From: Flavobacteriaceae bacterium
Lineage (GTDB): Bacteria; Bacteroidota; Bacteroidia; Flavobacteriales; Flavobacteriaceae
NCBI GenBank assembly: GCA_029268635.1
Contig: JAQWNL010000045.1
Coordinates: 1 to 49,007 of the forward strand
Direction of reading: 5' to 3'
Length of the DNA: 49,007 nt
Both the position numbers and the translations under genes were made by a program. The notes under the pieces were generated by a model, which saw only the letters and a program-made list of their open reading frames with translations, had not been told where the DNA came from and did not search any database. The stretch's first letter is position 1; every line of letters begins with the position of its first letter. Positions 11,922-30,614 of the stretch are shown in pieces.

Positions 11922-11986
11922 CACTAAAAAAGCCTTTCAGTTTTGAGAGGCTTTTTTAATTTTAGTAAGGACTTGATTTTAAATTT
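11901..11986 (+). repeat. Left copy (attL-like) of the island-bounding direct repeat
   Basis: Aligns with 32631-32717 at 75/87 columns by hand; exact 17-bp core acactaaaaaagccttt. Confidence 0.9.
11926..11957 (+). terminator. Intrinsic terminator after tRNA-Leu
   Basis: aaaaaagcctttca-gttt-tgagaggctttttt hairpin with T tail. Confidence 0.8.
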
Positions 11987-12077
11987 ATCTCTAAAAATAA
12001 TTTATATTTCTTAACACAAATCAATGTTTAATATTTATTAATTTCGTGTGGCTCTACTTTTATTTCAAAAAAAAAAT

Positions 12078-12125: not shown

Positions 12126-12410
12126 ATGAAGTATTTAGTTATTAGTAGAGGAGGTTCTTTAGTTCATGGAGCTAAAAAAGAAAATCTTCAAAAAGCAAAA
12201 GAAATGTTACAAAAAGGATTAGATTCTGGAAAAGTGGAAGCTTGTTACGGGATTGTCTCAGGAGGAACGGTATGGGTTATTAATGCAGATAGTCACGCAG
12301 CTTTAGCTCGTGGTTTGAAAGATTTTAATAGGTCTGGTGATCATCGTGTAGAAGTAATTCCAGTTTTAGATGGAATAGGAACATTAGATGCTCATATTGC
12401 AGGCAAATAA
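12126..12410 (+). CDS. Small dimeric alpha+beta barrel protein (DUF3303/muconolactone-isomerase-like)
   Basis: 94 aa with pattern MKYLV...GKVEACYGIVSGGTVWVINADSHAAL...VEVIPV. Confidence 0.55.
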   Translation: MKYLVISRGGSLVHGAKKENLQKAKEMLQKGLDSGKVEACYGIVSGGTVWVINADSHAALARGLKDFNRSGDHRVEVIPVLDGIGTLDAHIAGK

Positions 12411-12487: not shown

Positions 12488-14977
12488 ATGAAGACTTATC
12501 AGTTTTTTTGTATTGTAGATAAAAGTAAATCTGGTTTAATAATACAGATAAGCAAATTTATTCTTCGCTTAAAAAATAATCCAAATCAACAACTATCTTA
12601 TTTTCTTCCAGAAATACCTCATGAAATTGGTATAAGACTTATAATTCTTATCACTAATGTTAAAACTCTTGATCAGAAATTAAAAAAAACTATTAAGATA
12701 TTGGAATCAAACGATTCAATCCGATTTTTCCCCAATGAAAAAATATATATTACAAATCATAATTTAAAACCTGGAAAAACGGTATTCCTATTTCCTGGGT
12801 TTGGGTCTGAATTTCCAGAAATGTTAACAGGAACATCATCTAAATTTAAAGTTGTTTCAAAATGGATGAACATATTCGAAGATTTTCACAACAGAACTGA
12901 TAAAAATAATTCAATCAGTCAGGATGAATGGCTAGAATCCTTTTTAGTAAAAAAAAATTATGGCGTTACTGAAATAGGTCCAATAGGATCAATTGCTTCA
13001 TTAGCTTTTAACGATATTTTGCATACTTTGAATATTAAGTGTGATGCCATGATTGGTCACAGCAATGGTGAAAATGCAGCACTAATTTCATCTGGAATAT
13101 TAAACTTTAGTTCAAAGGATAAAATTTTAAAAATCCTACAATTGCTATCAGAATTCCCGCAATTGAAAAATAAAAATGGCGTTTATCTAGCCGTAAATAA
13201 TTTTTCTAAAAAGAATATTGATGAATTGTTATACCAATATTCAAACGATGTTTTTCTAGCAATGAACAACTGTCCAGGACAACAAGTTGTGTTTGCAAAA
13301 TTAGATTCTCGTGAATCAGTTATTGAATTTATTAAAAAAAGATATGGCTTAGTTTTCGAATTGACTACGGATCATCCTTATCATACAAAGGCATTTGAAG
13401 AGTCATTGGATTATTTAAACCCTATATACAGCCAATTTCAAATTATTAAAGGAATTATTCCTGTTTATAGCTGTGTCAATGCTAAATTATTTCCGGATGA
13501 TGAAGAGGGAATTCGAGATTTAGCTTTGCGTCAATGGATAGAACCTGTTGATTTTCAAAAAACCATTAAAACAGCTTACGAAGAAGGAGCAAGAACTTTT
13601 ATTGAAGTTGGTCCTAATAATCGACTTTCAGGATTTGTTCTTGATTCCTTGAAAGGAAAGAATATTTTGATGGTTAATTGTAGTAAAGAAAATACTTCTG
13701 CTCTCGATATGATCATTGAAATGTGTGCAAAGTTATGGGTGAATAATCATACAGTCGATTTGTCTTATTTCACAAAAAATATTGAATTCAATTTAGTTGA
13801 TAATCAAGCTGCAACAGATTCAAAATCAATAATAAATAGCGAAAAAATATTTGAAGGGCATCAAGAATTAATGCAACAATTTTTAAAAGTAAATGATGCT
13901 GTAACAAAATCTTTTTTAAATAAATTGAATGCTGTACCCAAAGCAATTGAAGACACCTCGATAATTCATGAAATAAATGATTTGTTATTGAATGGAAAAT
14001 ATAAAAAGACGGACTTAGGCCTTGAATTTATAGGGACTTTAGATCTCTCTAAACAAAAACTAATTAACGATCATTCCATGGGTGGAGCATTACCCGTTGT
14101 GCCTTTTACGGTTAGTCTCGAGTTACTAGCGGAAATAGGAACACAACTAATTAAACCAAATAATGGTTGTTTATCAGTGTTTGATTCAAGTGGAAATCAA
14201 TGGTTGGATTTTGAGCGAAATATAATTGAATTGAAAATCACGGCGAATTTGGAAGTTAGTGATTGTGAGAAAATTGTCGATATTAAAGTTTACAATGTCA
14301 CGGATAAAATGGATTCCAAAATTCCAGCTTTCCAAGGAAAAGTAAAATCGATTATAAACACAAACAAGGTGTCTATTATTGAACTTGGCGAAACAAAAAA
14401 TAGCGCTACCATAAGTATGAGTGATTTTTATAAAGACCACTTATTTCATGGAACTTGTTTTAAAAGTATGCACAGGATAAATTATTGGAATAATCAAGGT
14501 GTTGAAGCCATATTTAAAATGCCAGATTTATCTAATGGAATTGAAGGGATTTCGTCTCCTGAATTTCTTATTCCAGGTCCAATGTTGGATAGCACAGGAC
14601 AATTGATAGCTTATTGGCTCTATGAAGAAGGAATGAAGGACTACGCAATTTTCCCTTTTTATCTGGGATCATTTGATCAGTATAGTAAATTTCCTTCTGC
14701 GGGAATTTCAATATTATGTAGAGCCAAAATCAGCAAAGAATCGTCAGTAATCACTGGCAATTTTGAGTTTATAGATTCTAATGGAAATTGCATCGGGAGG
14801 TTGAACAATTTTCGATTAAAAGTGTTTAATAACGAATGGATTCCACCGCTTTTGATGAATAGGTTAAGTGATGGAAATCCTGAAACGCTTACTGCAGAAT
14901 TTTTAAACGAAGGTGGAGGCATTTGGAAAAAAATATTAGGGAAACTCAAGTTGAAAAATGAAGAATATACTCACTGA
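12488..14977 (+). CDS. PKS partner protein: KS-AT linker + acyltransferase + dehydratase (no KS domain)
   Basis: FLFPGFGSE, GHSNGE, NNCPGQQV, HPYHT, FIEVGP (AT); HSMGGALPVVP and LFHG...LDSTGQ (DH His/Asp dyad). Confidence 0.85.
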   Translation: MKTYQFFCIVDKSKSGLIIQISKFILRLKNNPNQQLSYFLPEIPHEIGIRLIILITNVKTLDQKLKKTIKILESNDSIRFFPNEKIYITNHNLKPGKTVFLFPGFGSEFPEMLTGTSSKFKVVSKWMNIFEDFHNRTDKNNSISQDEWLESFLVKKNYGVTEIGPIGSIASLAFNDILHTLNIKCDAMIGHSNGENAALISSGILNFSSKDKILKILQLLSEFPQLKNKNGVYLAVNNFSKKNIDELLYQYSNDVFLAMNNCPGQQVVFAKLDSRESVIEFIKKRYGLVFELTTDHPYHTKAFEESLDYLNPIYSQFQIIKGIIPVYSCVNAKLFPDDEEGIRDLALRQWIEPVDFQKTIKTAYEEGARTFIEVGPNNRLSGFVLDSLKGKNILMVNCSKENTSALDMIIEMCAKLWVNNHTVDLSYFTKNIEFNLVDNQAATDSKSIINSEKIFEGHQELMQQFLKVNDAVTKSFLNKLNAVPKAIEDTSIIHEINDLLLNGKYKKTDLGLEFIGTLDLSKQKLINDHSMGGALPVVPFTVSLELLAEIGTQLIKPNNGCLSVFDSSGNQWLDFERNIIELKITANLEVSDCEKIVDIKVYNVTDKMDSKIPAFQGKVKSIINTNKVSIIELGETKNSATISMSDFYKDHLFHGTCFKSMHRINYWNNQGVEAIFKMPDLSNGIEGISSPEFLIPGPMLDSTGQLIAYWLYEEGMKDYAIFPFYLGSFDQYSKFPSAGISILCRAKISKESSVITGNFEFIDSNGNCIGRLNNFRLKVFNNEWIPPLLMNRLSDGNPETLTAEFLNEGGGIWKKILGKLKLKNEEYTH

Positions 14978-15092
14978 TTTAAAAGTTCAAACAGTGATCA
15001 AATTAAATATTTACTAGAGTTAGAAACAGTTAAATTTAGTTCGATAAAATATTAATTTAATATTCACAAACTGAATAAAAATAAATATAAAA

Positions 15093-15401
15093 ATGGAAAG
15101 AACATTACCTGAAATTAGAGACGCAATTAAAGACATTCTAGATGAAATGATAGAGATGTATGATTTACCAGCTACAGAAATTAAAGATGATTTATTATTG
15201 ATCGAAACTTTAGGGTTTTCATCAGTGGATATTATGCATATGCTTGCATCTGTAGATATGAGATTCGAAAGACATTTGCCGTATGATAAAATAATGTTGA
15301 AAAACGATGAGTACGTAACCGATCTAAGTTTTGGAGAGATTGTCAATTTTGTCCACGAGAATTTTGATTTCGCTTCAACAGGGCCTAAAAAAATGTCATA
15401 G
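15093..15401 (+). CDS. Discrete acyl carrier protein
   Basis: Acidic 102-aa protein with LIETLGFSSVDIMHML (variant GxDS) and LSFGEIVNFV. Confidence 0.85.
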   Translation: MERTLPEIRDAIKDILDEMIEMYDLPATEIKDDLLLIETLGFSSVDIMHMLASVDMRFERHLPYDKIMLKNDEYVTDLSFGEIVNFVHENFDFASTGPKKMS

Positions 15402-15404
15402 AAA

Positions 15405-16187
15405 ATGAAGAAACTAATAATAAGCGCAGATGATTTTGGATTAACAGAAAGTGTAACAAAAGGAATTTCTGAAAGTATTCTTGATGGTGCTGTAACACGA
15501 ACGTCTGCAATGATGTGTACGAATGGGGCAGACTGGATTAAGAAATATAAAAATGGTATTGATGGTAAAATTGGGTTACATCTTCAATTAACAGATGGAA
15601 CTCCATTATTACCGTCTGAAGAGGTTTTATCGCTTATTGATGCAGAAGGAAATTTTCCATCTAAATCGAAACAACTAGGAAATGTAAATCATCTAGAAAT
15701 TGAAAAAGAATGGGAAGCTCAAATGGCAGCTTTATTGAACTTAGGAATTATTCCAAGTCATATTGATACACATCATAACGTTCACCGCTTCCCAAAAATT
15801 TTTAAAGTATATTGTGCAATTGCGGAAAAATATAAACTTCCATCAAGAGCATTGTCTTCAAACATGGCCAAAAAACTTAATTCTATCGGTTTATTAGGTA
15901 GTAATTTATGTCTTGAAAAATGGTGTGGAGAAAATGTAACAATTACTAGTCTAGTTAATCACACGCTAAGCGCCTTTAGATCAATTGAAAATAATGGAAC
16001 AATAGAGTTGATGTGTCACCCGGGTTATGTAGATAATAATCTGGAAGCACGATCACATTATTTACTGGCAAGAGAACAAGAATTGGCAGTATTTCTAGAT
16101 CCACAATTGAAAACGCTGTTGGCAAATCACAATATTGAATTGGTTGAAAACAACACAATATATTCTTTAAATACTTTAAAATGGTAA
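15405..16187 (+). CDS. YdjC/ChbG/HpnK-family carbohydrate deacetylase
   Basis: LIISADDFG, IGLHLQL, SHIDTHHNVH, ELMCHPG and REQEL motifs. Confidence 0.92.
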   Translation: MKKLIISADDFGLTESVTKGISESILDGAVTRTSAMMCTNGADWIKKYKNGIDGKIGLHLQLTDGTPLLPSEEVLSLIDAEGNFPSKSKQLGNVNHLEIEKEWEAQMAALLNLGIIPSHIDTHHNVHRFPKIFKVYCAIAEKYKLPSRALSSNMAKKLNSIGLLGSNLCLEKWCGENVTITSLVNHTLSAFRSIENNGTIELMCHPGYVDNNLEARSHYLLAREQELAVFLDPQLKTLLANHNIELVENNTIYSLNTLKW

Positions 16188-16900
16188 AGAACTTGACTTT
16201 TGACACAAAACCACTTGTTATCCATGCTCAAGGGCCGCATGATAACAAACCGTATTGGAAACCAATTCGAGATAATTTTTTTGCCTCACCGAAAAAGAAT
16301 ATTAAGCTAGTAGATGATTTAACTATATTTACTTGGAACAATGGTCATGAAGCAATGGGGGTTTTTGAAAAAAGTATGGAGCATCTTGGGTTGCCTTGTA
16401 TGATTCTTGGTGCTGGTGTAGAGAATTGGCAAAACAGTAAGCACAAACCATCTCTTACATATGAAGCATTGAAAAATATTGATACCCAGTATATTATGGG
16501 TGTTGATTCTCGTGATGCTATCTTAATTGATGATCCAGATATAATTTTACAATTATTCTTAAAGAATTTCGATTGTGATTTAGTTTTTTCTGCAGATTTA
16601 ATGAATTGGCCAAATATTATTAAATTTAAAAAATTCGAGGATAAATGTGCTAAAGGGGTTGATTCAGATTACAAATACTTAAATAGTGGAGCCTTTATCG
16701 GAAAGACAGATTTTTGCTTAGATTTTTTTAAAAAGGCCTCTGAAACAGAACCAGTTCCGCAAGCACCAAAGGCCGATCAAGGAATTTTTAAACAAATTTT
16801 TATGGACTATTATCCAAAAGTACAGTTGGACTACAATTGCCAGTTATTTCAAAATATAGGATTTGTATTTCGTAAAACATTAGAAGTGACTGAAAATTAG
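16181..16900 (+). CDS. PLOD/LH3-type GT-A glycosyltransferase domain, circularly permuted
   Basis: ILGAGVENW, GVDSRD, LVFSADLMNWP, YLNSGAFIG, DQGIF, LDYNCQLFQNI; the motif NLTFDTKPLVIHAQG lies at the N-terminus. Confidence 0.8.
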   Translation: MVKNLTFDTKPLVIHAQGPHDNKPYWKPIRDNFFASPKKNIKLVDDLTIFTWNNGHEAMGVFEKSMEHLGLPCMILGAGVENWQNSKHKPSLTYEALKNIDTQYIMGVDSRDAILIDDPDIILQLFLKNFDCDLVFSADLMNWPNIIKFKKFEDKCAKGVDSDYKYLNSGAFIGKTDFCLDFFKKASETEPVPQAPKADQGIFKQIFMDYYPKVQLDYNCQLFQNIGFVFRKTLEVTEN

Positions 16901-16901
16901 A

Positions 16902-17795
16902 ATGAAAGAACAAATTCTTATAAGTTATGAATGGGCAATTGCTATCTATAGAGGTAAAACTCCATCTAAGCTCGAACCTTGGATTGAGGCCCCTGAAACA
17001 GTGCTTACATTTGAAGATGTTACGGACGTCAAAGCAGATTTCGTTGCTGATCCTTTTATGATTTTAATTAATGATTTATGGTATATGTATTTTGAAGTGT
17101 TGAATAACACGTCAGGTCTTGGAGAAATTGGCTATGCAATAAGTTCGGATTGCATACAATGGACCTATAGAAAAATTATTTTGAGAGAAAAATTTCATCT
17201 TTCATATCCAATGGTTTTTGAAAATAATCAAGAATTATATATGATTCCCGAGACTCGACAAGCTGGTGAAATTAGATTATACAAAGCTGATGCATTTCCA
17301 GAAAAATGGAGACAAGAAAAAGTACTAGTTAAAGGAAACTATGCCGATGCAACAATATTCAATAATGAAGATCAATGGTGGATGTTTGCTCTTAAAGGAA
17401 CGAAAGACCTTCATTTATTTTACTCAGATTCTTTGTTGGGTGATTGGATTTCGCATCCTGCCAATCCTATTATAGAAAATAATATGAAAACGAGTCGTCC
17501 TGCGGGAAGAATAATAAAAGAAAACGGAAGCGTTTATCGATTGGCTCAGGACGGTGTTCCTCTTTATGGAAATAAAGTTAGAATGTTTAAAATAATAAAT
17601 TTGAACCGCACCAGCTATGAAGAAAGAGAATTGGATGAAAGTCCAATTTTAAAAGGATCAAGAAAAGGATGGAATTCAATTGGAATGCACCACGTTGATG
17701 CACATCAATTGGAAAATAAAAGTTGGATAGCTTGTGTTGACGGAGCAAATCCAAAGTTTAAGCAACTTAAGAATTTGAAAACGGAAATAAAATAG
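16902..17795 (+). CDS. Five-bladed beta-propeller, GH43-clan-like / GINT1 N-terminal-domain-like protein
   Basis: FVADPF, FHLSYP, YMIPE, ADAT, HPANPI, SRPAG and GMHHVD motifs. Confidence 0.7.
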   Translation: MKEQILISYEWAIAIYRGKTPSKLEPWIEAPETVLTFEDVTDVKADFVADPFMILINDLWYMYFEVLNNTSGLGEIGYAISSDCIQWTYRKIILREKFHLSYPMVFENNQELYMIPETRQAGEIRLYKADAFPEKWRQEKVLVKGNYADATIFNNEDQWWMFALKGTKDLHLFYSDSLLGDWISHPANPIIENNMKTSRPAGRIIKENGSVYRLAQDGVPLYGNKVRMFKIINLNRTSYEERELDESPILKGSRKGWNSIGMHHVDAHQLENKSWIACVDGANPKFKQLKNLKTEIK

Positions 17796-17802
17796 GACAA
17801 AA

Positions 17803-18957: not shown

Positions 18958-18958
18958 T

Positions 18959-21900: not shown

Positions 21901-24900
21901 AGTTGAATTAACGTCAATTAATAATGTTCTTGAAAATGCTGGTGCGAATGAAAATTCTTGTGTTGTTGGGTCGGTAAAGTCCTTAATTGGTCATACCAAA
22001 ACTACAGCAGGAATTGTTGGTTTAATAAAAAGTGCATTGTCTTTACATTATAAAACTTTAGCACCCCATCCTATGAACGGTGATCCAATTGATTTATTAA
22101 AAAATAACACGACACCAGTTTATCTTCTAGAAGAAGCTCGACCTTGGTTTAAGGATGCTATTCATCCTAGAAGAGCAGGAATAAGTGCTTTTGGTTTTGG
22201 GGGAACAAATACACATGTTACTATTGAAGAATATAGAAATAATACAAAGAAAAATTTGATTGGGCATGAAAAATGGCCAGCTGAACTGTTCATATTTGAA
22301 GCGTTAACGAGTGATGAAATGCTTAAAACAGTGAACGGTTGGGCGGCAGCTTTAAAAGATGGACTGACCAACTCACTTAAAGATTTATCCTTTATCTCAT
22401 TCTGTGAAAGTCAAACTAAAAAGAACTTAAAGGTGAAGCTTAGTATTGTGGCTGAGAATAAGGAAAGTCTCATACATCTATTGGAAAGAGTTGCGCTGAA
22501 CTTATCTGAAAAAGATGGAAATATATTACTTCCACCTCAAATTACATTGAACTTAAATTCAGAAGAGACTAAAGGAAAATTAGGATTTGTCTTTCCAGGA
22601 CAAGGATCACAATACTCCAATATGGCTCAAGAAAACACCTTGTATATTAAGGAATTGCGTGAAGTTATTGATTTAGCCAATGATCAATTGAATGGAGCTA
22701 TTAAGATGGATAAATTACTATTTCCAAAAGCTTCATTAAATCAAGAAACAACGGATTATTGGCAGGATAAATTAAGAGCGACCGAAAATGCCCAACCAGC
22801 TATTGGTACAATATCAATGGGATATTTGAATTTTCTGAAATCATTAGAGATTAAGCCAGAAGTTGTTGCAGGACACAGTTATGGGGAATTTACAGCGTTA
22901 CATGCCGCAGGGGTTCTGAGTTCAAACGATTTGTTTACTATTTCTCAAAAGAGAGGATCAATAATGGCTGGCAGTTGCGAGGTAGATGGAACAATGGCTG
23001 TTGCTTTTGGAACTCCAATACAAATCTCCTCTTATTTGAATACTGATGTTTATATTGCAAACTTAAATTCTCCAAAGCAAACCGTTATTTCAGGTGAAAG
23101 AAATGCTGTTTATGAAGCAATGGCTGAAATAAAAAAGAACGGTATAAAGGTAAAGGAAATCGCCGTTGCAGGTCCATTTCATACTCCGTTTTTTAAAATA
23201 GCTCAACAACCGTTAATAGAGGCTATAAGTAGCTTGTCTTTTAATAGCCCTAAAATCCCTGTTTATTCTAATACTACTGGAAATGTTTATCCTCAAGATT
23301 CAGAGATGATAGGTAAATTATTAAATCAACACCTTTTGAGTCCTGTTCATTTTTTAAATGAAATAGAACAGATGTACAAAGACGGAGTTCGACTATTTCT
23401 TGAAGTTGGTCCGAATAACGTATTAACTGGATTAATTGATCAAATTCTAGAAGGTAAATCATATAAAGCAATAGCCGTTGAAGGTCAAGGTGGTGGAATG
23501 AAAGGAATTTTAAGCGCGGTTGGTGCTGTTTTTGCAGATGGATATAATTTGAATATTGAGAGTTTATTTGAAGGGAGAAACTGCGAATTTCTTAATCTAT
23601 CCGAAGCAATTAAAGAATCTAAAAAGAAAACACATAGTGATGCAACTGTCTTATTACACGGTGGAGGTGTTCGAAAAATTGATGAAAATATAGCTATCAC
23701 AGGGATTTCACCGCTTATTGATGCAACAAAAAGAAAAGAAATTAAATCTGTTGAAGTTTTAAAATTATCGCTTGCTTCTGGTCAATTGAATACTAACGAT
23801 CAGCTACTTGCGGGCTATCAATCTTATCAACAAACAATGCAACAATTTCTCGCAAGTCAAGAAACAATGATGGAGCTTTTTTTAAAAGGAGAACCGATTC
23901 TAGATCAACAAATAAATAATACTGATATTCCTTTAGCTGCAGTAAAAATGGATCAAATACCTCTTATAAATGAGGAGATTGATTCTAATGAAATAGAGGG
24001 AACCAAAACTCAATTTATTGAAAATGAGAAATCTGTAAATAGAGATGATGTTGCAGCGAAAATGATTGCTATTATCAGTGAAAGAACAGGGTATCCTTTA
24101 AATATGCTGACTGAACATATAGATTTAGAAGCGGAGTTGGGAATTGACTCAATCAAACGGATGGAAGTACTTGATAAGGTTTTGAAAGAATTATCAATAG
24201 ATCATGAAAGAAAACTTCAAGGATTTATGCCACAATTAATGCGAGCGAAATCAATCAATGAATTTTTAAATATCGCTTTCAATAAAGAAATTGTTCAAAA
24301 GCTGGGCGAAGTTACCGAAACCTCAAAAACGAATAAAATTCCTCTTGTAGCAATTAAAAATGATACAAATAAAGAAACGTGTGCACGTTTTGTTATGGAG
24401 TCCGTAATACAGGAATTGCCATTTAAAGGAAATCCAGTATTAACAGGGGTTCACCTTATAACTTCTGATTCGGGAAATATAGCAAATTTGGCAGCAAAGA
24501 AGATTAAATCTTTCGGCGGAACTCCTATTGTTTTAGGTGAAGATATTTTGGCTTCATTTGATCTTTTGGAAGCAGAACTTTTGATTTTATTTAAAAAATA
24601 TCCTGAAATTTCAAGTGTGATTCACTGTGCGCCTTTGAGTAAAATCTCAATGCCAGAAGAGTTGAAAGGATGGAAAAACCTAACGCAAATCCAATCAAAA
24701 AGTTTGTTTCAAGTTCTGCGATTTGCTGCGCTTGAAGATGAGAAAGCAATTCATTTTCCAATCAAAAAAGTGATAACAACTTCTTCATTTGGAGGTTATT
24801 TTGGTAGAAAGAATAAACCTTCAAATGGACTTCCTTGTTCAGGAGGGAATGCTGGAATGTTAAAAGCACTTGTTAAAGAACACACTGATATTGATATTAA

Positions 24901-25879
24901 AGTTTTAGATTTTGATAGTTTACTGCTTGAAAGTGAAGTTGCATACCGAATTGTGCGTGAATTAGCGAATACGAGCGAAAAGATTGAAATTGGTTATCCA
25001 AATGGTGAACGGGTAGTTTTCTATCCTGTTGCCGCTGAATTAGAAAATCAAGATAGTTCAGAAGATCATCGTTTAGATGAGAATTCAGTTGTGTTAGCAA
25101 CTGGTGGAGCAAAGGGAATTACAGCTGAGATTACTAAATCAATGATGGTTCCTGGTATGAAGCTTATAGTTGTAGGTAGGTCAAAATCGATTGATTTAGA
25201 AATTATAAATGAAGGAGGTATAAATAAATCATTTCATCTATTAATTGAGCAGGGCGTTGATGTAGAATATTTTTCTTTAGATGTAAAGGATGATCAAGCA
25301 TTCAAAGAACTGATTGAATATGTTTATAGTACTTATGGAAGAATAGATGCCGTAATTCATGGAGCAGGAATTATAGAAGATGATCATATAGAATTAAAAA
25401 AAATCGCCTCTTTCAATAATGTGTTTGATACAAAGGTGGATACAGCATTTTTACTATTCAAATATTTGCGTCCAGAATCCTTAAAATTATTGGTGTTTTT
25501 CGGTTCTGTATCCGGACGATTTGGAAATCAAGGCCAAACGGATTATGCTGCAGCTAATGAGGTATTGAATCGTTTTGCTTGGTATTTACATCAAAAATGG
25601 TCGAACACTAGAACGCTTACCATTAATTGGGGACCCTGGAGTATGATAGGAATGGCATCCCCAATGGTTATTCGACTATTAAAAAGTCAAGGAATTGGAC
25701 CAATTCATCCAGATGAAGGGTGTGCTTTTTTCTTGCGTGAAATTCGCCAAGGAAGCAATGAAACTTCAGAAGTGATCGCTGGAGATGGACCTTGGGGAAA
25801 TTCTGACGAAATGATTCTGCCAGAATTCGAACTTGAACATATTTTTAATCAAACGGCTATTCACAGTATTGCAGAATAA
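18959..25879 (+). CDS. Iterative type I PKS, PUFA-synthase-like: degenerate NMO/ER + NMO/ER - KS - AT - ACP - KR
   Basis: ER: KGNESGG (first copy), PIVQGPMTRVSD and EGRECGGHVG; KS: DSACASS, EAHGTGT, IGHTK, FGFGGTN; AT: FPGQGSQ, GHSYGE, GPFHT; PfaA-type ACP: ERTGYP...LEAELGIDSIKR; KR: TGGAKGIT, YAAAN, WGPW. No DH or TE. Confidence 0.93.
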   Translation: MFKVITYSPLHLSNTALAIETVKADSIALFDLEYCEDSKIERSIENLKYTLSTIPENSTIGLKSPLNKISFYKVLIDLLIGHKLILVLSDLQNTKKEKVAIPDWILNSDLEIWGEITSKSQEWILHDNNIQSIIIKGNESGGSIGSESSFVLSAYLINKSEKDVFVQGGIGFHTAAACFVAGANGVIIDDHLLAMSQSPFPNQWKKIIKHLAIEDTVITSKNNRNYRTINHPLFKNSEGIGWDNPSLVKWPVGQAIGFAHELASEYKTVGRLINAILANALLNIKEAKVHKPLAPNSKLSVSHGTRFPIVQGPMTRVSDVPNFIDAVAKSGGLPFLALSMISGKAVTELLAETHSQLGEKPWGVGILGFVPEELRVHQFNEIKKIKPPFALIAGGTIAQVKEFEEEGISAYIHAPVPSLLKIFLEKGCKRFVFEGRECGGHVGPIGSFTLWESAIKILLELPKGEAEHIHVLFAGGIYNYMSASMIAAMSGQLAAKGIKVGVLMGTAYLFTSEVCESGAILPRFQQTAIDCETTAVIETGPGHAIRCANTPFIQEFESEKEKGNKDLDNLTLGRLRIASKGIKRNEIGELSKISEKDQYDNGMFMLGEVAAMMYSLTSMEELHVEVSKKGNELLGKVELPEKKRVELTASNIAVIGISTILPKADSPDDFWTNIINKVDAITEVPLSRWDWRLYYDEDNKKRDKINSKWGGFIDDVIFDPLKFGIPPHSLKSISPAQLLLLEAVDRALNDAGYGDGGFDNEHTSVIVGSDGSSTLKTQYTTRALSPLSMDLLTKEDLDRLPEWNEESFPGVLTNVLAGRIANRFNLGGANFTVDSACASSLTAIDLAIKELEHGNSNMVIAAGADIAQSPFSYTAFSKTQALSPTGKSQPFNKDANGIVISEGIAVVLLKRLEDAERDGDKIYCVIKGAANSSDGKGLGLTAPRSGGQEKALNRAYLKAGYSPSTLGSYEAHGTGTSFGDKVELTSINNVLENAGANENSCVVGSVKSLIGHTKTTAGIVGLIKSALSLHYKTLAPHPMNGDPIDLLKNNTTPVYLLEEARPWFKDAIHPRRAGISAFGFGGTNTHVTIEEYRNNTKKNLIGHEKWPAELFIFEALTSDEMLKTVNGWAAALKDGLTNSLKDLSFISFCESQTKKNLKVKLSIVAENKESLIHLLERVALNLSEKDGNILLPPQITLNLNSEETKGKLGFVFPGQGSQYSNMAQENTLYIKELREVIDLANDQLNGAIKMDKLLFPKASLNQETTDYWQDKLRATENAQPAIGTISMGYLNFLKSLEIKPEVVAGHSYGEFTALHAAGVLSSNDLFTISQKRGSIMAGSCEVDGTMAVAFGTPIQISSYLNTDVYIANLNSPKQTVISGERNAVYEAMAEIKKNGIKVKEIAVAGPFHTPFFKIAQQPLIEAISSLSFNSPKIPVYSNTTGNVYPQDSEMIGKLLNQHLLSPVHFLNEIEQMYKDGVRLFLEVGPNNVLTGLIDQILEGKSYKAIAVEGQGGGMKGILSAVGAVFADGYNLNIESLFEGRNCEFLNLSEAIKESKKKTHSDATVLLHGGGVRKIDENIAITGISPLIDATKRKEIKSVEVLKLSLASGQLNTNDQLLAGYQSYQQTMQQFLASQETMMELFLKGEPILDQQINNTDIPLAAVKMDQIPLINEEIDSNEIEGTKTQFIENEKSVNRDDVAAKMIAIISERTGYPLNMLTEHIDLEAELGIDSIKRMEVLDKVLKELSIDHERKLQGFMPQLMRAKSINEFLNIAFNKEIVQKLGEVTETSKTNKIPLVAIKNDTNKETCARFVMESVIQELPFKGNPVLTGVHLITSDSGNIANLAAKKIKSFGGTPIVLGEDILASFDLLEAELLILFKKYPEISSVIHCAPLSKISMPEELKGWKNLTQIQSKSLFQVLRFAALEDEKAIHFPIKKVITTSSFGGYFGRKNKPSNGLPCSGGNAGMLKALVKEHTDIDIKVLDFDSLLLESEVAYRIVRELANTSEKIEIGYPNGERVVFYPVAAELENQDSSEDHRLDENSVVLATGGAKGITAEITKSMMVPGMKLIVVGRSKSIDLEIINEGGINKSFHLLIEQGVDVEYFSLDVKDDQAFKELIEYVYSTYGRIDAVIHGAGIIEDDHIELKKIASFNNVFDTKVDTAFLLFKYLRPESLKLLVFFGSVSGRFGNQGQTDYAAANEVLNRFAWYLHQKWSNTRTLTINWGPWSMIGMASPMVIRLLKSQGIGPIHPDEGCAFFLREIRQGSNETSEVIAGDGPWGNSDEMILPEFELEHIFNQTAIHSIAE

Positions 25880-25907
25880 ATCATTTATTATATTAAACTA
25901 ATCAACC

Positions 25908-26984
25908 ATGAGGAAGAAAATAAAAAAGTTTATAGAAAAACTTGTAACAATACTGTTTATGAGTTATGTGCTGTTAATTAAAGTCTTACATCTTCCTTCG
26001 AAATGGTTTTCAAATCGAGTTCAGCAAATTATGAACAACTGGACATATTCAATGTTGTGGACGTATATTTCATCTTTTGCTACGAGAGTTTATTTGGATC
26101 AACCTTGTGAATATAAAATAGTAACAGATCAGCCAAAGACAATCGTTGATGATCAATTCAAATTAACACCTGAACAAATAAAGGGATTTCATATGAATGG
26201 TTTTTTAGGTCCCTTAACTTTAGTTTCAGAAGATCAAATGTCAATTTTTCGCACAAAACTTGAAAATGAACTTGATATAGATTCAAAAACATTTGGATTT
26301 AAAACTGTTAGAGATAGACATTTAGATGCCCCATTTATAATGGAGATGTTTAAAAAACCTGAGATAACAGAAGTTTTGGCTCAATTGTTAAGTCCAAATA
26401 TATTATTATGGCGGTCTCATGTTTTTAATAAACCACCTGGAGCAGCTTCAATTCCATGGCATCAAGAATCAACTTACATGTCAGAAGATTATAAACAGCC
26501 AATTCTTCATACAAAAAATAAAAACGATCTTTTTCAACTTACTGTATGGATTGCAGTTGATCCTGCAACTTTGGAGAATGGATGCATAGAGTTTATTTTA
26601 GGATCACATTCTAAAATGAGAAAAATTTCAATTGGTAAAGGAGATAAATTTTATTCATCACAATTCGCAATGGATGTAGATTTAAACAATTCTGAAATTG
26701 TCCCGATGCCTTTAAAACCTGGGCAATTTGTTGTTTTTTGTGAAAGATGTGTTCACGGTAGTAAAGGTAATATGTCGGATACAAGAAGAATGGGAATGAC
26801 TTTTAGAGCAATTACTACTGAAACATCAGCTTATGCGAATCAGAAGAAACACTACGCTGCACATCATCAATTAACTTGGGATTTGAAAAACTGGAAAATT
26901 GTGACATTACGAGGAGAAGATAAATTTAAGTTGAGTAAAACTGAAATTGAAAAGGAATCAGAGAAAATTATAGAAGAGATGTAA
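25908..26984 (+). CDS. Fe(II)/2-oxoglutarate oxygenase of PhyH/SyrB2 (chlorinating enzyme)-like type with N-terminal hydrophobic extension
   Basis: RDRHLD, LLWRSHVFNKPPG, WHQES, LTVWIA, ENGCIEF, LKPGQFVVF, VHGS, RRMG, LRGED. Confidence 0.85.
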   Translation: MRKKIKKFIEKLVTILFMSYVLLIKVLHLPSKWFSNRVQQIMNNWTYSMLWTYISSFATRVYLDQPCEYKIVTDQPKTIVDDQFKLTPEQIKGFHMNGFLGPLTLVSEDQMSIFRTKLENELDIDSKTFGFKTVRDRHLDAPFIMEMFKKPEITEVLAQLLSPNILLWRSHVFNKPPGAASIPWHQESTYMSEDYKQPILHTKNKNDLFQLTVWIAVDPATLENGCIEFILGSHSKMRKISIGKGDKFYSSQFAMDVDLNNSEIVPMPLKPGQFVVFCERCVHGSKGNMSDTRRMGMTFRAITTETSAYANQKKHYAAHHQLTWDLKNWKIVTLRGEDKFKLSKTEIEKESEKIIEEM

Positions 26985-27605
26985 ATGGTAAATGTATTTA
27001 AATCTGTGACTGGCGTATTTGTTGAGAACACTTATTTTCTCGTTAATTCGAAAGAAAAGTGGGGGGTAATTGTAGATCCTGGTCAGGGAGCATTGGAGTT
27101 TCTAGAACAATTAAATATGGAAGAGATCACTTGGAAGGCTATTTTTCTTACACATGCTCATTTTGATCACCTTTTGGGATTACGTAAGGTAGTTCAATAT
27201 GTTAATGTTCCGATTTATTTACATAAAGAAGACTTATTTTTATACGATCTTTTTGTAGAAGAAGCTTCCAAATTTGGATACAAGGAGGAAGTTTTACCAC
27301 AACCTGATTTATTCTGGAAAGATAATGATAAGATTGTAATTGGTAAAACGAAATTTGAAGTAATCCACACTCCAGGTCACACTCCTGGAAGCGTATGTTT
27401 AAAATGGGAAAATCAACTTATGACAGGTGATACATTGATGTACAGAACAATTGGTAGAACAGATTGGTTTGGATCATTTGAAGAGATCCAGAAAAGTATT
27501 TCGAAGAAGCTATTTAGTCTTCCTGATAATACCGTAATTTATCCAGGGCATCATAAAGCAAGCACTATAGCAGAAGAGAAAAGACACAACCTCGAAATTT
27601 TTTAA
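26985..27605 (+). CDS. MBL-fold metallo-hydrolase (glyoxalase II/YcbL-like)
   Basis: THAHFDH, HTPGHTPG, TGD, GRTD and YPGH motifs. Confidence 0.92.
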   Translation: MVNVFKSVTGVFVENTYFLVNSKEKWGVIVDPGQGALEFLEQLNMEEITWKAIFLTHAHFDHLLGLRKVVQYVNVPIYLHKEDLFLYDLFVEEASKFGYKEEVLPQPDLFWKDNDKIVIGKTKFEVIHTPGHTPGSVCLKWENQLMTGDTLMYRTIGRTDWFGSFEEIQKSISKKLFSLPDNTVIYPGHHKASTIAEEKRHNLEIF

Positions 27606-27607
27606 AA

Positions 27608-28681
27608 ATGAAAATATTATATATAGTTCCTAACCCAAATAGAATAGGTGGTGTATCTCGTTCTATTCAACGCGTTGTTCATTATTTAAAAAGCAATGGG
27701 TTAGACGTTAAACTTTTCTGTCCAGATTTTGAAGCCGAAAATGGGGTTTCAAAGTCAGAAATGATGATGATGAAGGAATTACTTACAGGATCTATGATGC
27801 AAGAATGGACCCAAAGAGTAATAGATAAAATGAAAACAGAGACTCCAGACTTAGTCGTAGGATATTATGGGAGCTCTGCAGCATACTGCGCTACTGCTGC
27901 AGCAAAGTTTTTAGATATTCCTGTTATCGCTTGTTTTCGTGGAAATGATATTAATAGAGATTTTTTTTCTTCATTTCATGCACCAAAGTTGAATTTCGTA
28001 GCACAGAATGCTACGGCAATCACAACCGTTTCTTCAGAGATGAAAGAGAAGGTAAGAACTTGGTTAGGAGTGGAGGCTAACTTTATTTCAAATTCTGTAG
28101 ATAAATCTATTTTTTACAACCGAAAGAAATTAGTAAAGGAATACAAACAAAAATGGAACCTAGGTAATCGAGCTATTGTCGGCTTATTTGGAGAATTTAA
28201 GGCTTCAAGAGGGCTAGAGCTTTTAGATCATTTAAAAGGTGAATTACAAAATGTACAAACTATAATTGTTGGCAAAGTTAGAAGCTCCATTCAGAAACAA
28301 CTGCCAGACTATGTTACTGTTATTCCTTACATTAATCAAATTGAAGAGTTGACAATAGCATATTCTCTGTGTGATGTAGTTTTTCAGCCATCTAAATACG
28401 ATGGAATGCCCAATGTTGTTCTCGAAGCTATGGCTTGTGAAAGAATCGTTCTTGCCTCTCCAACTGGAGGAATTAAAGATTTAATAAATCATGGTGAAAA
28501 TGGTTATTTGTGCAGTACTAACGATGATTGGAAAAACAATCTCAAGTTAGCACTCAATAATACTGGTACTCAAATCGGAAAAATGGCTAGAGAAAGTGTT
28601 CCAGAACCAAAGGAAGAAGCTGCCGAATTTATCTCTCTATTTTCAACAATTCTAAAAAAAAACAAAGCTCATTATAACTAA
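27608..28681 (+). CDS. Glycosyltransferase family 4
   Basis: IGGV, FRGND, YDGMPNVVLEAMAC. Confidence 0.9.
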   Translation: MKILYIVPNPNRIGGVSRSIQRVVHYLKSNGLDVKLFCPDFEAENGVSKSEMMMMKELLTGSMMQEWTQRVIDKMKTETPDLVVGYYGSSAAYCATAAAKFLDIPVIACFRGNDINRDFFSSFHAPKLNFVAQNATAITTVSSEMKEKVRTWLGVEANFISNSVDKSIFYNRKKLVKEYKQKWNLGNRAIVGLFGEFKASRGLELLDHLKGELQNVQTIIVGKVRSSIQKQLPDYVTVIPYINQIEELTIAYSLCDVVFQPSKYDGMPNVVLEAMACERIVLASPTGGIKDLINHGENGYLCSTNDDWKNNLKLALNNTGTQIGKMARESVPEPKEEAAEFISLFSTILKKNKAHYN

Positions 28682-28686
28682 TTTAT

Positions 28687-29850
28687 ATGCAAAAAACACT
28701 CCTTTTTTACTGTCAACATTCTATTGGTATTGGCCATTTAGTTCGCTCTTTTGCATTGGTTAACTCTTTAAAAAAAACCTTCCTAGTGACCTTGGTTTCT
28801 GGTGGTGATTTTCCTAAGGGATTAAGTGTTCCAGATGGTATTAATTTTGTTCAACTTCCGCCAATAGGATTGAATTTGAATAAATGTCTTGAAGCAATTG
28901 AGAGCGATGAACCCGTTTATAAGGTTATGAAATCAAGACAAAATAAAATCATGAGGATTTATAATGAAATTGAACCTGATGTTTTTGTTTCGGAGTATTT
29001 TCCATTTGGAAAAATTCAATTTATAGGAGACTTATTAGCTCTTTTAAAACGAACAAAATTTAGTAATAAACCCGTTACTGTTGTTTGCAGTTTACGTGAT
29101 ATTTTAGAGCCTACAAGTACGACTAAGAAAATACATCAAGACTTTAGTACTAAAATGATAAATGAGTACTATAGTAGTATTTTGGTTCATGGAGATGAAA
29201 ATTTTATTACATTAAACAAAACCTGTCCACACTTAAGTAGAATGAATGTTCCAGTTTATTATACGGGATATGTTACTGATGAAAAATACCAGACAAAGAT
29301 TGATCGTACGGTTTTTAACGAAATTGTATTATCTGCTGGAGGAGGAAAAATAGCATCGCCATTTATTACAAAAATGGTATGTTCTTTTAAGAAATTTGGA
29401 TTTGGAGAAGGCATAAGTTTAAAGGTTATTGCTGGACCTATATTTCCAAAAGGCGATTGGATTGAATTGCAAGAATTGGTAAAAAATGAACCTGGTATTG
29501 TATTGCTTCGGTCAGTTGAAAACTTAACTAATGTATGGAAAAAGGCAAAATTATCAATTAGTATGGGGGGGTACAATACTTTAATGGAAGTAATTTGTAG
29601 TAGAATTCCTGCATTAATAATTCCTTATTGCAACGAAAGTAATAGAGAGCAAGAAATTAGAGCAATTAAGCTGCAAAAAGAAGGATTAGTTGAAACTACA
29701 GATTTTGAAAAATTAAGTAAAAAAGAATTAACCGAAGCTGTTAAAAATGCATTGAATTTTAATCCTGTAGATAAAGACCTTAACTTAAATGGAGCCGAGA
29801 ATACTAGACTAATTATCGAACAACAATGTTTAGAATATTCAACACCTTAA
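28687..29850 (+). CDS. GT-B glycosyltransferase with GT28 C-terminal-like domain (COG4671-like)
   Basis: YCQHSIGIGH, EYFPFG, SLRDIL, SAGGG, SMGGYNT and EQEIRA motifs. Confidence 0.85.
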   Translation: MQKTLLFYCQHSIGIGHLVRSFALVNSLKKTFLVTLVSGGDFPKGLSVPDGINFVQLPPIGLNLNKCLEAIESDEPVYKVMKSRQNKIMRIYNEIEPDVFVSEYFPFGKIQFIGDLLALLKRTKFSNKPVTVVCSLRDILEPTSTTKKIHQDFSTKMINEYYSSILVHGDENFITLNKTCPHLSRMNVPVYYTGYVTDEKYQTKIDRTVFNEIVLSAGGGKIASPFITKMVCSFKKFGFGEGISLKVIAGPIFPKGDWIELQELVKNEPGIVLLRSVENLTNVWKKAKLSISMGGYNTLMEVICSRIPALIIPYCNESNREQEIRAIKLQKEGLVETTDFEKLSKKELTEAVKNALNFNPVDKDLNLNGAENTRLIIEQQCLEYSTP

Positions 29851-30614
29851 TCTTGATCCATAGCGGCAGTTGAAAGCCAGAAATCTTCTGTGCGAAGCGT
29901 AAAACCAACATATTCCTTTGTCTTATAAAATTGAAGGTTGAAATGTATTTTTTGTTGAATTAAAAATGAGAAATTTGGGGCTGTATCAATTGAGAACATT
30001 CCTCTGCCTGTTGATTTCAGTACAGCCTCTTTTAAGGACCATATCCAACTAAATAATATTGATTGTTCTTCACTTTTGGCATTTTGAAGTATACTAACTT
30101 CTTTCTCGTGAAAGAATCGTTTTGCTAATTGGATACCAACTTTACTTGGTCTTAATTCAGATTCTATATCTATCCCTATAGATTTATGCGAGTCTATTAG
30201 AATAGCTAAATTATTTGCAGAATGAGAAATATTAAATGAAATCTTTTTTAAAGGTATTTTTAATATAGGTTTACCATTTTCACCATATAAAAATACGATT
30301 TCTGAAGGAGAAGTGTTTAAATATTCTGCTAAAATTAACCGCAATGCAATACGTGATTTTGTTCTGGTTTCTTGCTCTACAGGGGAGATTAATCGCTCTA
30401 ATTTATCTTTTTCGTCACTACTCAAAATTCCCAAAAAAGGTCTGTGATCGAAAACTAATAAATCGATTAAGAAAAGATGTGCATTCGCCTTTTCAGGTAT
30501 TGTTAAATCAATAGTTTGATACCTGTATTCTTCAATATTGATGTTATTTTTACCAATCCAAGGAATTTTGTAAATCTTTACTGAAGAAATTTTTCTTTTC
30601 AATTTTTTTAACAT
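29847..30614 (-). CDS. Sfp-type 4'-phosphopantetheinyl transferase
   Basis: GENGKP, FNISHS, IGIDIE and WSLKEAVLKSTGRG; convergent with and overlapping the cluster end by 4 bp. Confidence 0.92.
   Translation of the reverse strand: MLKKLKRKISSVKIYKIPWIGKNNINIEEYRYQTIDLTIPEKANAHLFLIDLLVFDHRPFLGILSSDEKDKLERLISPVEQETRTKSRIALRLILAEYLNTSPSEIVFLYGENGKPILKIPLKKISFNISHSANNLAILIDSHKSIGIDIESELRPSKVGIQLAKRFFHEKEVSILQNAKSEEQSILFSWIWSLKEAVLKSTGRGMFSIDTAPNFSFLIQQKIHFNLQFYKTKEYVGFTLRTEDFWLSTAAMDQD

What the first reader, a model, noticed from the sequence alone, without database searches (positions are those of the whole stretch)
12488..30614. Candidate undescribed glyco-polyketide lipid pathway in a Flavobacteriaceae island
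Seen: eleven co-oriented, tightly packed genes plus a convergent Sfp PPTase. They encode an AT-DH protein, ACP, YdjC deacetylase, PLOD-type GT, GINT1-like propeller, GT4, a 2306-aa ER-KS-AT-ACP-KR synthase, Fe/2OG oxygenase, MBL hydrolase, GT4 and a GT28-like GT. Established: PfaA-type ACP sequences (TGYP...LEAELGIDSIKR) and FMN-dependent NMO/PfaD-like ERs belong to iterative secondary-lipid synthases. YdjC-family HpnK de-N-acetylates a lipid-linked GlcNAc in hopanoid synthesis. Inference: the megasynthase plus trans AT-DH supply a full reductive cycle (KS, AT, KR, DH, ER) for a long acyl chain that is oxidised and given a multi-sugar head including a free glucosamine. The gene set is not flexirubin (type II, DarAB), not canonical pfaABCD (no tandem ACPs, no KS-CLF) and not a standard heterocyst glycolipid cluster. 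I cannot name a product for it.
Basis: partly seen in the sequence, partly recalled or inferred. Interest (0 to 1): 0.88.

Follow-up and report, generated by a model that had tools for sequence, protein, structure and literature searches.

The report
Marine glycolipid cluster with reverted halogenase
A 21-kb island inserted at a tRNA gene of a marine flavobacterium carries a gene set, conserved in other Flavobacteriaceae, that likely builds a sugar-decorated long-chain lipid, and its halogenase-type enzyme has regained an iron-binding residue that is predicted to turn it from a chlorinating into a hydroxylating enzyme.

Summary
Confirmed: all 12 genes are present. They lie in a 20.6-kb island bounded by a tRNA-Leu repeat, with an empty site in a congener. 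The gene order recurs in Mesohalobacter, two cultured Flavobacterium species and marine metagenomes.

The synthase itself is not new. ER-KS-AT-ACP-KR is the fused PfaDA/Ars-type secondary-lipid synthase, and its KS groups with the Beijerinckia Type P enzyme. The tailoring set matched nothing in my paper searches; MIBiG was not available.

New here:
(1) The 'oxygenase' is a SyrB2-family halogenase homologue. Five syntenic orthologues have the halogenase motif HQA; the window lineage has a derived HQE with companion changes, under purifying selection (Ka/Ks about 0.1). The same swap engineered into SyrB2 kills activity.
(2) The PLOD glycosyltransferase is circularly permuted but keeps its catalytic residues.
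(3) The second AT lacks the malonyl Arg, like the long-chain transferase PfaB.
(4) A protease-dead ABC exporter accompanies several marine copies.

Best reading: an amino-sugar glycolipid, hydroxylated here and chlorinated in sister clusters. Product, linkage and activities are untested. Verdict: new variant of a known kind.

The parts
11840..11922 (+). tRNA-Leu(TAG), insertion site of the island
   Evidence: ARAGORN; Rfam; empty site in G009
11902..11997 (+). Left copy of a 96-nt direct repeat (tRNA 3' end plus terminator-like hairpin)
12126..12410 (+).
   Evidence: Pfam E 0.0015, below cut-off; Atlas score 0.94; upstream in L005, L007, L009, L028, L029, L032, L033, L034 at 53-100%
12488..14977 (+). 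KS-less AT-DH protein. AT has GHSNG Ser192 and lacks the malonyl-binding Arg (PfaB-like); PKS-type DH has His529 and Asp701
   Evidence: Arg present in 0 of 50 aligned second-protein rows, present in every ER-first synthase AT printed; PfaB comparison from PMC12895367
15093..15401 (+). Stand-alone acyl carrier protein (Ser44 invariant)
15405..16187 (+). YdjC/ChbG-family carbohydrate de-N-acetylase with its metal ligands retained
   Evidence: Pfam E 4e-54; PDB 2i5i and 7vi8; below HpnK and ChbG cut-offs
16181..16900 (+). Circularly permuted PLOD/LH3/R699-type GT-A glycosyltransferase
   Evidence: residues 2-20 align to LH3 221-239; model pLDDT 78 matches LH3 and R699; N-terminal His motif in 113 of 121 rows, C-terminal LH3-order motif in 0
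16902..17795 (+). GINT1_N beta-propeller, likely an accessory domain of the next glycosyltransferase
   Evidence: Pfam E 2.5e-62; fused to GT4a in L034
17803..18957 (+). GT4 glycosyltransferase A; best NCBIfam hit is the GlcNAc transferase BshA, below cut-off
18959..25879 (+). 2306-aa fused PfaDA/Ars-type synthase: His-less ER-like repeat, ER, KS (Cys837), malonyl AT (Ser1307), one ACP (Ser1731), KR (Tyr2196)
25908..26984 (+). SyrB2-family Fe/2OG enzyme with His185-Gln-Glu187 (codon GAA at 26466), His283, Arg294, Thr298 and a hydrophobic N-terminal extension; syntenic orthologues have HQA
26985..27605 (+). Metallo-beta-lactamase-fold hydrolase (glyoxalase II-like), candidate thioesterase
27608..28681 (+). 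GT4 glycosyltransferase B; absent from L030 and L032
28687..29850 (+). GT28_C/GT1-like glycosyltransferase
29847..30614 (-). Sfp/HetI-type phosphopantetheinyl transferase
30632..32059 (-). Two tandem orphan paralogues (221 and 220 aa) with SGNH-hydrolase-like motifs (label from recalled motifs only); found with the HQE lineage
   Evidence: no family hit
32632..32727 (+). Right copy of the direct repeat, island boundary
1897..9098 (-). NHLP-type exporter (HlyD, two ABC subunits, outer-membrane factor) whose C39 domain has Ser in place of the catalytic Cys; outside the island here, directly next to the cluster in four marine relatives; candidate exporter

Best explanation
The island carries a co-conserved 13-gene set that likely makes an amino-sugar-bearing glycolipid with a long, predicted saturated acyl chain, predicted to be hydroxylated in this lineage and chlorinated in sister lineages. 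Shown: the genes, motifs, synteny, island bounds and the derived Ala-to-Glu change. Inferred steps: (1) the PPTase primes both ACPs; (2) the fused ER-KS-AT-ACP-KR synthase elongates malonyl units iteratively, borrowing the DH of the AT-DH protein; (3) the Arg-less AT moves the finished chain to the stand-alone ACP; (4) the SyrB2-family enzyme oxidises the ACP-bound chain, giving C-Cl with HQA and C-OH with HQE; (5) the MBL hydrolase releases the chain; (6) GINT1-GT4a adds GlcNAc, YdjC removes its acetyl group, the permuted PLOD enzyme adds an alpha-1,2-linked hexose, and GT28 and the optional GT4b add further sugars; (7) in several marine copies the protease-dead ABC exporter ships the product out. 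Rough odds: glycolipid of some form 0.75, hydroxylase switch 0.65, free glucosamine in the product 0.45.
For: Synteny: of 23 PKS-anchored loci (13, 10), 5 carry all 12 genes in order (L005, L028, L029, L033, L034), 2 lack only GT4b (L030, L032), 2 cultured Flavobacterium lack only the Fe/2OG gene (L007, L009), 3 are contig fragments and 11 share only the synthase core, plus at most the PLOD, GT28 or halogenase gene. The KS falls in a 21-row ER-first clade (SH-aLRT 95) with Beijerinckia, apart from PfaA/HglE-type KS (4 rows, 100); the Type P product is a C22-26 saturated chain (PMC3098273). The DH is PKS-type, not the FabA isomerase type. The second AT has the malonyl Arg in 0 of 50 rows, as in PfaB (PMC12895367). 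Best PDB matches of the Fe/2OG enzyme are SyrB2 and CytC3. A relative, P0338 (HQA), is a fatty acyl-AMP ligase-ACP-halogenase fusion in the same 26-row clade (support 90), and the island has no adenylation domain, so acyl-ACP is the likely substrate. Glu187 occurs in 8 of 74 rows (7 distinct sequences) and Ala in 61; the Glu rows form one clade nested among Ala rows and share G162S, P203K, S278C and N298T. Ka/Ks is 0.09-0.12 within the Glu clade at Ks up to 1.0. Asn298 is found in 36 of 57 HxA rows and 0 of 65 HxD rows. PLOD residues matching R699 K62, E114 and H216 are kept. Verrucomicrobial L014 has a DegT aminotransferase and a Gfo/Idh/MocA oxidoreductase where YdjC is missing, a second route to an amino sugar. 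RNA-library contigs cover the cluster in 4 of 4 runs laid.
Against: No product, activity or sugar donor is shown; GT4 hits to BshA are far below cut-off. No acyltransferase or thioester reductase explains how chain and sugar are joined. Engineered Ala-to-Asp/Glu in SyrB2 gives no hydroxylase (PMC4019311), so Glu187 alone does not prove hydroxylation. With the five diagnostic columns removed, support for one Glu clade falls to UFBoot 73. Nine other HxE rows keep Asn298. The Glu lineage is one evolutionary event, so its companion changes are not independent. L001 has the PLOD enzyme with neither YdjC nor an aminotransferase in the cluster. The exporter is not found in F. collinsii, F. araucananum or the L014 genome at E<=1e-80. 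RNA contigs cannot show strand or level.
Confidence: 0.5

Rival explanations
1. N-acyl amino-sugar route, with Nod-factor or lipid A logic. YdjC frees the amine so that the Arg-less AT, via the stand-alone ACP, can acylate it. The product is an N-acyl-glucosamine oligosaccharide with no free amine.
For: The cluster has no separate acyltransferase; the second AT is PfaB-like; AT-DH, ACP and YdjC are consecutive genes; L014 makes an amino sugar by another route. Deacetylation followed by N-acylation in NodB/NodA and LpxC/LpxD is recalled.
Against: Amide formation by an AT domain is not a known PfaB activity in the passages read. The MBL hydrolase would then lack a release role, although it is kept in all 11 Bacteroidota-type loci of the presence matrix. 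L001 has the same AT-DH and ACP with no amino-sugar gene.
Confidence: 0.2
2. The pathway decorates an existing envelope molecule (lipid A, LPS core, or a glycine or sulfonolipid) with a very long acyl chain and extra sugars, rather than making a free glycolipid.
For: The top PDB match of the ACP profile is a 'specialized acyl carrier protein' (2kw2; recalled as AcpXL). There is no transporter inside the island. A homologue of the orphan paralogues lies beside an ABC-transporter ATPase and genes that look like surface-polysaccharide modifiers.
Against: The ACP match is barely better than ordinary ACPs (E 2e-6 against 1e-5); no LpxXL- or PlsC-type acyltransferase is encoded; a dedicated exporter flanks four marine copies.
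Confidence: 0.12
3. The product is a secreted short or partly reduced polyketide glycoside (allelochemical or surfactant), not a long-chain membrane lipid.
For: Patchy island distribution (0 of 40 relatives; 0 of 400 family genomes), halogenase ancestry, swappable tailoring genes (TauD, citrate-synthase-like and methyltransferase genes in L007, L009, L001), a TolC-type exporter, and a single ACP with no chain-length factor.
Against: The KS belongs with the long-chain Ars-type synthases; ER, KR and DH all look active; the Fe/2OG enzyme has a hydrophobic N-terminal stretch.
Confidence: 0.13
4. Same pathway, but the Glu187 enzyme is not a hydroxylase: it is a desaturase, another oxidase, or a catalytically silent binding partner. 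This rival concerns step 4 only.
For: SyrB2 Ala-to-Glu or Asp abolishes halogenation without giving hydroxylation (PMC4019311). Two Flavobacterium genomes keep the pathway with no copy of this gene.
Against: Ka/Ks near 0.1 over Ks 0.9-1.0; both His and the 2OG Arg are retained; the changes near the active site shift towards residues seen in HxD enzymes. The two Flavobacterium clusters carry a TauD dioxygenase instead.
Confidence: 0.3

Closest known systems
Ars-type phenolic-lipid synthase (Type P of Shulse & Allen 2011, PMC3098273; Azotobacter, Beijerinckia)
   Same: ER-KS-AT-ACP-KR order, 37-39% identity to the Beijerinckia plasmid synthase, same KS clade, DH supplied by a second protein
   Different: No type III PKS head-group genes; the second protein is AT-DH with a separate PPTase instead of DH-PPTase; one ACP instead of two; four glycosyltransferases, a deacetylase, an Fe/2OG enzyme and an MBL hydrolase
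Fused pfaDA / pfaBC synthases of Flavobacteriales clade VI and Renibacterium (PMC13291983)
   Same: ER fused to PfaA in Flavobacteriales
   Different: Those lie beside NRPS/PKS lines and have a PfaBC-PPTase fusion; here there is no NRPS and no KS-CLF. Their sequences were not compared directly.
Canonical PUFA synthase pfaABCDE and heterocyst glycolipid hgl synthases
   Same: PfaA-type KS, AT, ACP and KR; a PfaB-like Arg-less AT; Sfp/HetI PPTase
   Different: Below the PfaA cut-off (898 against 1010 bits), single ACP, no CLF, no FabA-type DH, no thioester reductase, separate KS clade
SyrB2/CytC3/HctB carrier-dependent Fe/2OG halogenases
   Same: Best PDB matches (E 2e-46 with the profile); two His, 2OG Arg and DRHL motif; HQA in the orthologues
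   Different: The window enzyme has Glu at the halide site plus companion changes, an 80-residue N-terminal extension, and no adenylation domain nearby
HalA/Hydrox natural halogenase-hydroxylase pair (bioRxiv 2024.09.19.613983)
   Same: Close homologues differing at the halide site and at a second-sphere Asn
   Different: That pair acts on free lysine in the BesD family; this pair is SyrB2-family, likely carrier-bound, about 80% identical and in the same gene cluster. Equivalence of Asn298 to HalA Asn224 rests on recalled spacing and could not be verified.
Collagen glucosyltransferases LH3/PLOD3 and mimivirus R699 (PMC12279948)
   Same: GT-A fold and catalytic residues
   Different: Circular permutation; a stand-alone bacterial enzyme in a lipid cluster; LH3's acidic run before the conserved Gln is shortened

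Membership tests
Ars-type (Type P) phenolic lipid synthase | ER-KS-AT-ACP-KR megasynthase in the same KS clade | tested here: met
   domain map and KS tree, 21-row clade, SH-aLRT 95
Ars-type (Type P) phenolic lipid synthase | flanking type III PKS genes | tested here: not met
   none among window ORFs; present in Beijerinckia L002
Ars-type (Type P) phenolic lipid synthase | DH-PPTase partner protein | tested here: not met
   AT-DH plus separate PPTase
canonical pfaABCDE PUFA synthase | tandem ACPs, KS-CLF, FabA-type DH pair, separate PfaD | tested here: not met
heterocyst glycolipid (hgl) cluster | HglE-type KS, KS-CLF-AT protein and thioester reductase | tested here: not met
   the KS reference was a Nostoc plasmid pfa/hgl-type locus (L055), not HglE itself
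flexirubin/aryl-polyene cluster | type II KS genes and DarAB | tested here: not met
   no such domains among the island ORFs; the defining genes are recalled
SyrB2-type halogenase | HxA/G halide site | tested here: not met
   HQE in the window; HQA in 5 syntenic orthologues; motif rule from PMC13519999
SyrB2-type halogenase | SyrB2-clade fold, two His and the 2OG Arg | tested here: met
   TIGR01762 129.7 bits, below its 226.3 cut-off
SyrB2-type halogenase | acts on a carrier-tethered substrate | not testable with these tools
   needs an assay; indirect support from the ligase-ACP-halogenase fusion P0338
Fe/2OG hydroxylase | HxD/E...H facial triad | tested here: met
   His185, Glu187, His283
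Fe/2OG hydroxylase | hydroxylation activity | not testable with these tools
   needs an assay
PLOD/R699 GT-A glucosyltransferase | DxxD, Lys, acidic acceptor residue, Trp, Asn and metal His | tested here: met
   K89, D109, D112, N168 and Q200 in 121 of 121 rows, D139 in 120, H15 in 119, W143 in 118
PLOD/R699 GT-A glucosyltransferase | LH3 sequence order, with the metal His at the C-terminus | tested here: not met
   circularly permuted
HpnK hopanoid deacetylase | TIGR03473 cut-off | tested here: not met
   107.9 against 232.6 bits; YdjC superfamily membership is met
tRNA-integrated genomic island | tRNA 3' repeat at both ends and an empty site in relatives | tested here: met
tRNA-integrated genomic island | own integrase | tested here: not met
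   no integrase among island ORFs of 80 aa or more
any MIBiG known cluster | same gene content with a known product | not testable with these tools
   MIBiG and antiSMASH not available

The most novel reading that the evidence does not exclude
A family of bacterial chloro- and hydroxy-glycolipids is made by Ars-type synthases. In surface-ocean Flavobacteriaceae a carrier-dependent SyrB2-type chlorinase has naturally evolved back into a working hydroxylase through Ala187Glu plus a few second-sphere changes, and a circularly permuted collagen-type glucosyltransferase builds the sugar head. The roughly 80%-identical HQA/HQE pair would reveal what the inactive SyrB2 Ala-to-Glu mutant lacks.
Probability: 0.35. 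Interest if true: 0.85.

Novelty: new variant of a known kind. Interest (0 to 1): 0.66.

Why it matters
Most Pfa-like secondary-lipid synthases have no known product. This cluster has cultured carriers (F. collinsii, F. araucananum), so its product can be identified directly, and its near-identical marine form is held by 20 of 24 listed public runs from 13 studies. If the HQA orthologues chlorinate, they point to an unrecognised bacterial source of marine organochlorine lipids. How non-heme iron enzymes choose halogen over hydroxyl rebound is a long-standing question. Restoring the carboxylate in SyrB2 kills activity, whereas this lineage has kept that change under purifying selection, giving a short list of compensating residues to test. 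The permuted PLOD enzyme would be a bacterial, lipid-directed member of the collagen glucosyltransferase family.

Tried and rejected
- A single-sequence fold of the PLOD protein failed (pLDDT 31); the 10-row alignment fold was used instead.
- Complex prediction of the Fe/2OG enzyme with the stand-alone ACP gave no answer (score 0.00) and is not used either way.
- The Atlas search of the GINT1 propeller could not be run and PDB gave no match, so its role rests on the L034 fusion only.
- Glu279, the His-4 position highlighted for HctB, is not diagnostic: it occurs in 41 HxA and 40 HxD rows.
- BesD/HalA residue numbering could not be confirmed in two papers.
- The SGNH label for the orphan pair got no support from Pfam, PHROGs, PDB, phage or plasmid searches.
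- The promoter scan was at chance level, 5 found against 4.4 expected.
- GC of the cluster (33.1% against 30.8%) is only a weak island signal.
- No tmRNA or structured RNA other than two tRNAs.
- The exporter's role in a bacteriocin system was rejected as unlikely: the C39 Cys is Ser in 4 of 4 copies and no convincing precursor ORF was seen.
- Pseudogene status of the HQE gene was rejected.
- Five look-ups of earlier scan findings returned nothing.
- Ten paper searches found no description of this gene set; the library lacks most subscription journals.

Full report
OBSERVATION. All twelve ORFs are present as described, with the stated domains. The synthase reads ER-like repeat (1-290, catalytic His missing), ER (296-630), KS (649-1095), AT (1206-1500), one ACP (1696-1770) and KR (2041-2260), with intact active-site motifs. 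The window is contig C45 of a 58%-complete genome; a flanking peptidase clusters with proteins labelled Flavobacteriaceae.

ISLAND. The cluster starts right after tRNA-Leu(TAG). A 96-nt repeat of the tRNA 3' end recurs at 32632-32727. In congener G009 the left flank (to 11996) and the right flank (from 32632) overlap on the same 95 nt, which is the empty site. G010 and G020 have only one other small gene there (11 stretches from 8 genomes were examined). None of 40 relatives, 24 of them congeners, has the full synthase; their hits are FabD/FabF only. None of 400 family genomes matched the ER region at E<=1e-60. The PLOD profile gave 2 weak hits in 400 phylum genomes, and the halogenase profile 0 in 400 class genomes. 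These are samples, so the cluster is rare, not absent. No integrase lies inside.

CONSERVATION. Scans with the synthase returned 13 genome loci and 10 metagenome loci. Five carry all twelve genes in order: L005 (Mesohalobacter MAG, synthase 64%), L028, L029, L033 and L034. L028 (99%) and L029 (94%) are close kin and not independent. L030 and L032 lack GT4b. F. collinsii and F. araucananum (46%) lack the Fe/2OG gene genome-wide and carry TauD, citrate-synthase-like and methyltransferase genes instead. L006, L031 and L035 are fragments; L031 was left out of the presence matrix. The other eleven loci and four plasmid loci share the synthase core with other tailoring genes; the PLOD gene also occurs in L001 and L014.

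THE SYNTHASE IS A KNOWN KIND. The plasmid search found the same architecture in Beijerinckia beside two type III PKS genes. This is the Type P phenolic-lipid cluster of PMC3098273 (parts 2-3 of 7 and passages read; its Figure 1 with domain maps was not visible; the ars gene names are recalled). PMC13291983 (passages) describes fused pfaDA in Flavobacteriales. In a 40-row KS tree the window groups with all ER-first synthases (21 rows, SH-aLRT 95), apart from PfaA/HglE-type KS (4 rows, 100). Within it the ten PLOD-type, KS-less clusters form a clade (96) (quick ML; L035 is truncated before its PLOD gene). The partner protein has lost the KS that Nevskiaceae, Leptolyngbya and Streptomyces relatives keep. 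Its AT has the malonyl Arg in 0 of 50 rows. PMC12895367 (passages) shows that the same loss marks PfaB, which transfers long acyl chains. I infer that it hands the finished chain to the stand-alone ACP.

THE FE/2OG ENZYME. Its best solved relatives are the halogenases SyrB2 and CytC3. The window has His-Gln-Glu where SyrB2 has His-Gln-Ala. Among syntenic copies five have Glu (window, L028, L029, L030, L032) and five have Ala (L005, L006, L033, L034, L035). Among 74 rows have Ala, 8 Glu, 2 Thr, 2 Val and 1 Ser. The Glu rows form one clade (SH-aLRT 99) nested among Ala rows, and all carry G162S, P203K, S278C and N298T. A 167-row tree with distant representatives shows the same nesting. With the five diagnostic columns removed, the Glu clade persists at UFBoot 73 inside a 100% clade whose outgroups are all Ala. 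The direction Ala to Glu is therefore well supported and a single origin moderately so. Ka/Ks is 0.09-0.12 within the Glu clade at Ks 0.17-1.0, so the gene is maintained. Asn298 is in 36 of 57 HxA rows and 0 of 65 HxD rows, but 9 other HxE rows keep it. PMC13519999 (passages) gives HxG/A as the halogenase rule. PMC4019311 (passages) states that Ala-to-Asp/Glu in SyrB2 abolished halogenation without giving hydroxylation. bioRxiv 2024.09.19.613983 (passages) shows that second-sphere residues set the outcome in HalA/Hydrox. A fatty acyl-AMP ligase-ACP-halogenase fusion in the same clade (P0338) and HctB (PMC6218459, passages) make acyl-ACP the likely substrate. Hydroxylation by the window enzyme and chlorination by its sisters are predictions.

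SUGAR ENZYMES. The PLOD protein matches R699 and LH3 by sequence and predicted fold. Its first 20 residues match LH3 residues 221-239, which carry the metal His: a circular permutation. The N-terminal motif is in 113 of 121 rows and the LH3-order motif in none. That two-segment alignment is itself weak (6.5 bits), so the family-wide pattern carries the claim. Residues matching R699 K62, E114 and H216 (PMC12279948, passages; 3-residue tag offset inferred) are kept; R699 makes alpha-1,2-glucosides. GINT1_N is fused to GT4a in L034, echoing the plant glucosamine transferase named in the Pfam description. GT4a's best NCBIfam hit is a GlcNAc transferase, far below cut-off, and YdjC keeps its metal ligands. 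L014 has an aminotransferase and an oxidoreductase instead of YdjC. An amino sugar is therefore likely; whether its amine stays free is open.

EXPORT AND EXPRESSION. An NHLP-type exporter at 1897-9098 is missing from 27 of 27 congeners. It flanks the cluster in L005, L032, L033 and L035 at 52-71% identity, and has Ser for the C39 Cys in 4 of 4 copies. It is not found in three other carrier genomes, is not at this position in L029, and is not seen beside the cluster in L034. Twenty of 24 listed runs from 13 studies hold part of 18959-28681; one may be the source sample and six are RNA. Contigs of four RNA runs from three studies cover 30, 30, 28 and 24 of 30 bins. On a flanking control stretch RNA depth ranged from 0 to over 1000, against 0-25 in a DNA run apart from the tRNA bin, so the libraries behave like RNA. 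Transcription is likely but not shown.

VERDICT. This is a real, conserved cluster that I did not find described, built on a known synthase type: a new variant of a known kind. MIBiG could not be checked, no supplements were read (supplementary figures of PMC3098273 and PMC13291983 could list related clusters), and product and activities are untested. Interest 0.66.

Noticed in passing
L017:3672-25934 (Leptolyngbyaceae MAG): An ER-first synthase, KS-AT-DH, ACP-sulfotransferase fusion, second sulfotransferase, hydrolase and at least two SyrB2-family halogenases (HQT, HRA). This is the gene content expected for a chlorosulfolipid; my one paper search returned no hit for that word among the listed papers.
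   Followed up: partly
L008 (Cyanobium sp. FGCU52): A related synthase with an HKA halogenase, acyltransferase, hydrolase and TPR protein: another candidate halogenated-lipid cluster.
   Followed up: partly
L007:325-3181, L009:316-3174, L001:21336-24872: A TauD dioxygenase, citrate-synthase-like protein and methyltransferase trio is shared by the two Flavobacterium clusters and a Rhodobacteraceae plasmid cluster, and takes the place of the halogenase gene; it may add an alkyl-citrate-type group.
   Followed up: partly
P0377, P0350/P0352 and a 7-row clade including P0399 and P0405: Other HxE sequences lie among HxA rows, so restoration of the carboxylate may have happened several times in this halogenase family.
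   Followed up: partly
window:30632-32059 against L005, L007, L009, L033, L035: The SGNH-like pair is seen in 5 of 5 HQE loci and 0 of 4 HQA loci that cover this spot. L005, L007, L009 and L035 carry a methyltransferase gene there, and L033 a 129-aa ORF that was not scanned. This is one event, but it fits a new hydroxyl being acylated or trimmed.
   Followed up: partly
window:1-10204: A second insertion relative to congeners holds the exporter and an APH-like kinase. The 386-aa ORF at 19-1179 is the N-terminal part of a 1011-aa kinase-M23-aminotransferase of relatives and runs to the contig end.
   Followed up: partly
window:12488-14977; L028:2093-4582: The window AT-DH (829 aa) is 16-41 residues shorter than full-length orthologues (845-870 aa) but is a common allele (27 cluster members); in L028 the gene is split in two.
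   Followed up: no
window:26984-26985: The Fe/2OG and MBL genes abut in frame (stop then ATG) in the window, L029, L006, L035 and L034, and the protein collection puts both products in one 90% cluster, which may mean a fused allele exists.
   Followed up: no
L011-L013, L015, L016, L036, L037 (Nevskiaceae, Algiphilus): Related clusters keep a KS-AT-DH second protein with its Cys, up to five ACPs, a phosphodiesterase/sulfatase-fold gene and an alpha/beta hydrolase; product unknown.
   Followed up: partly
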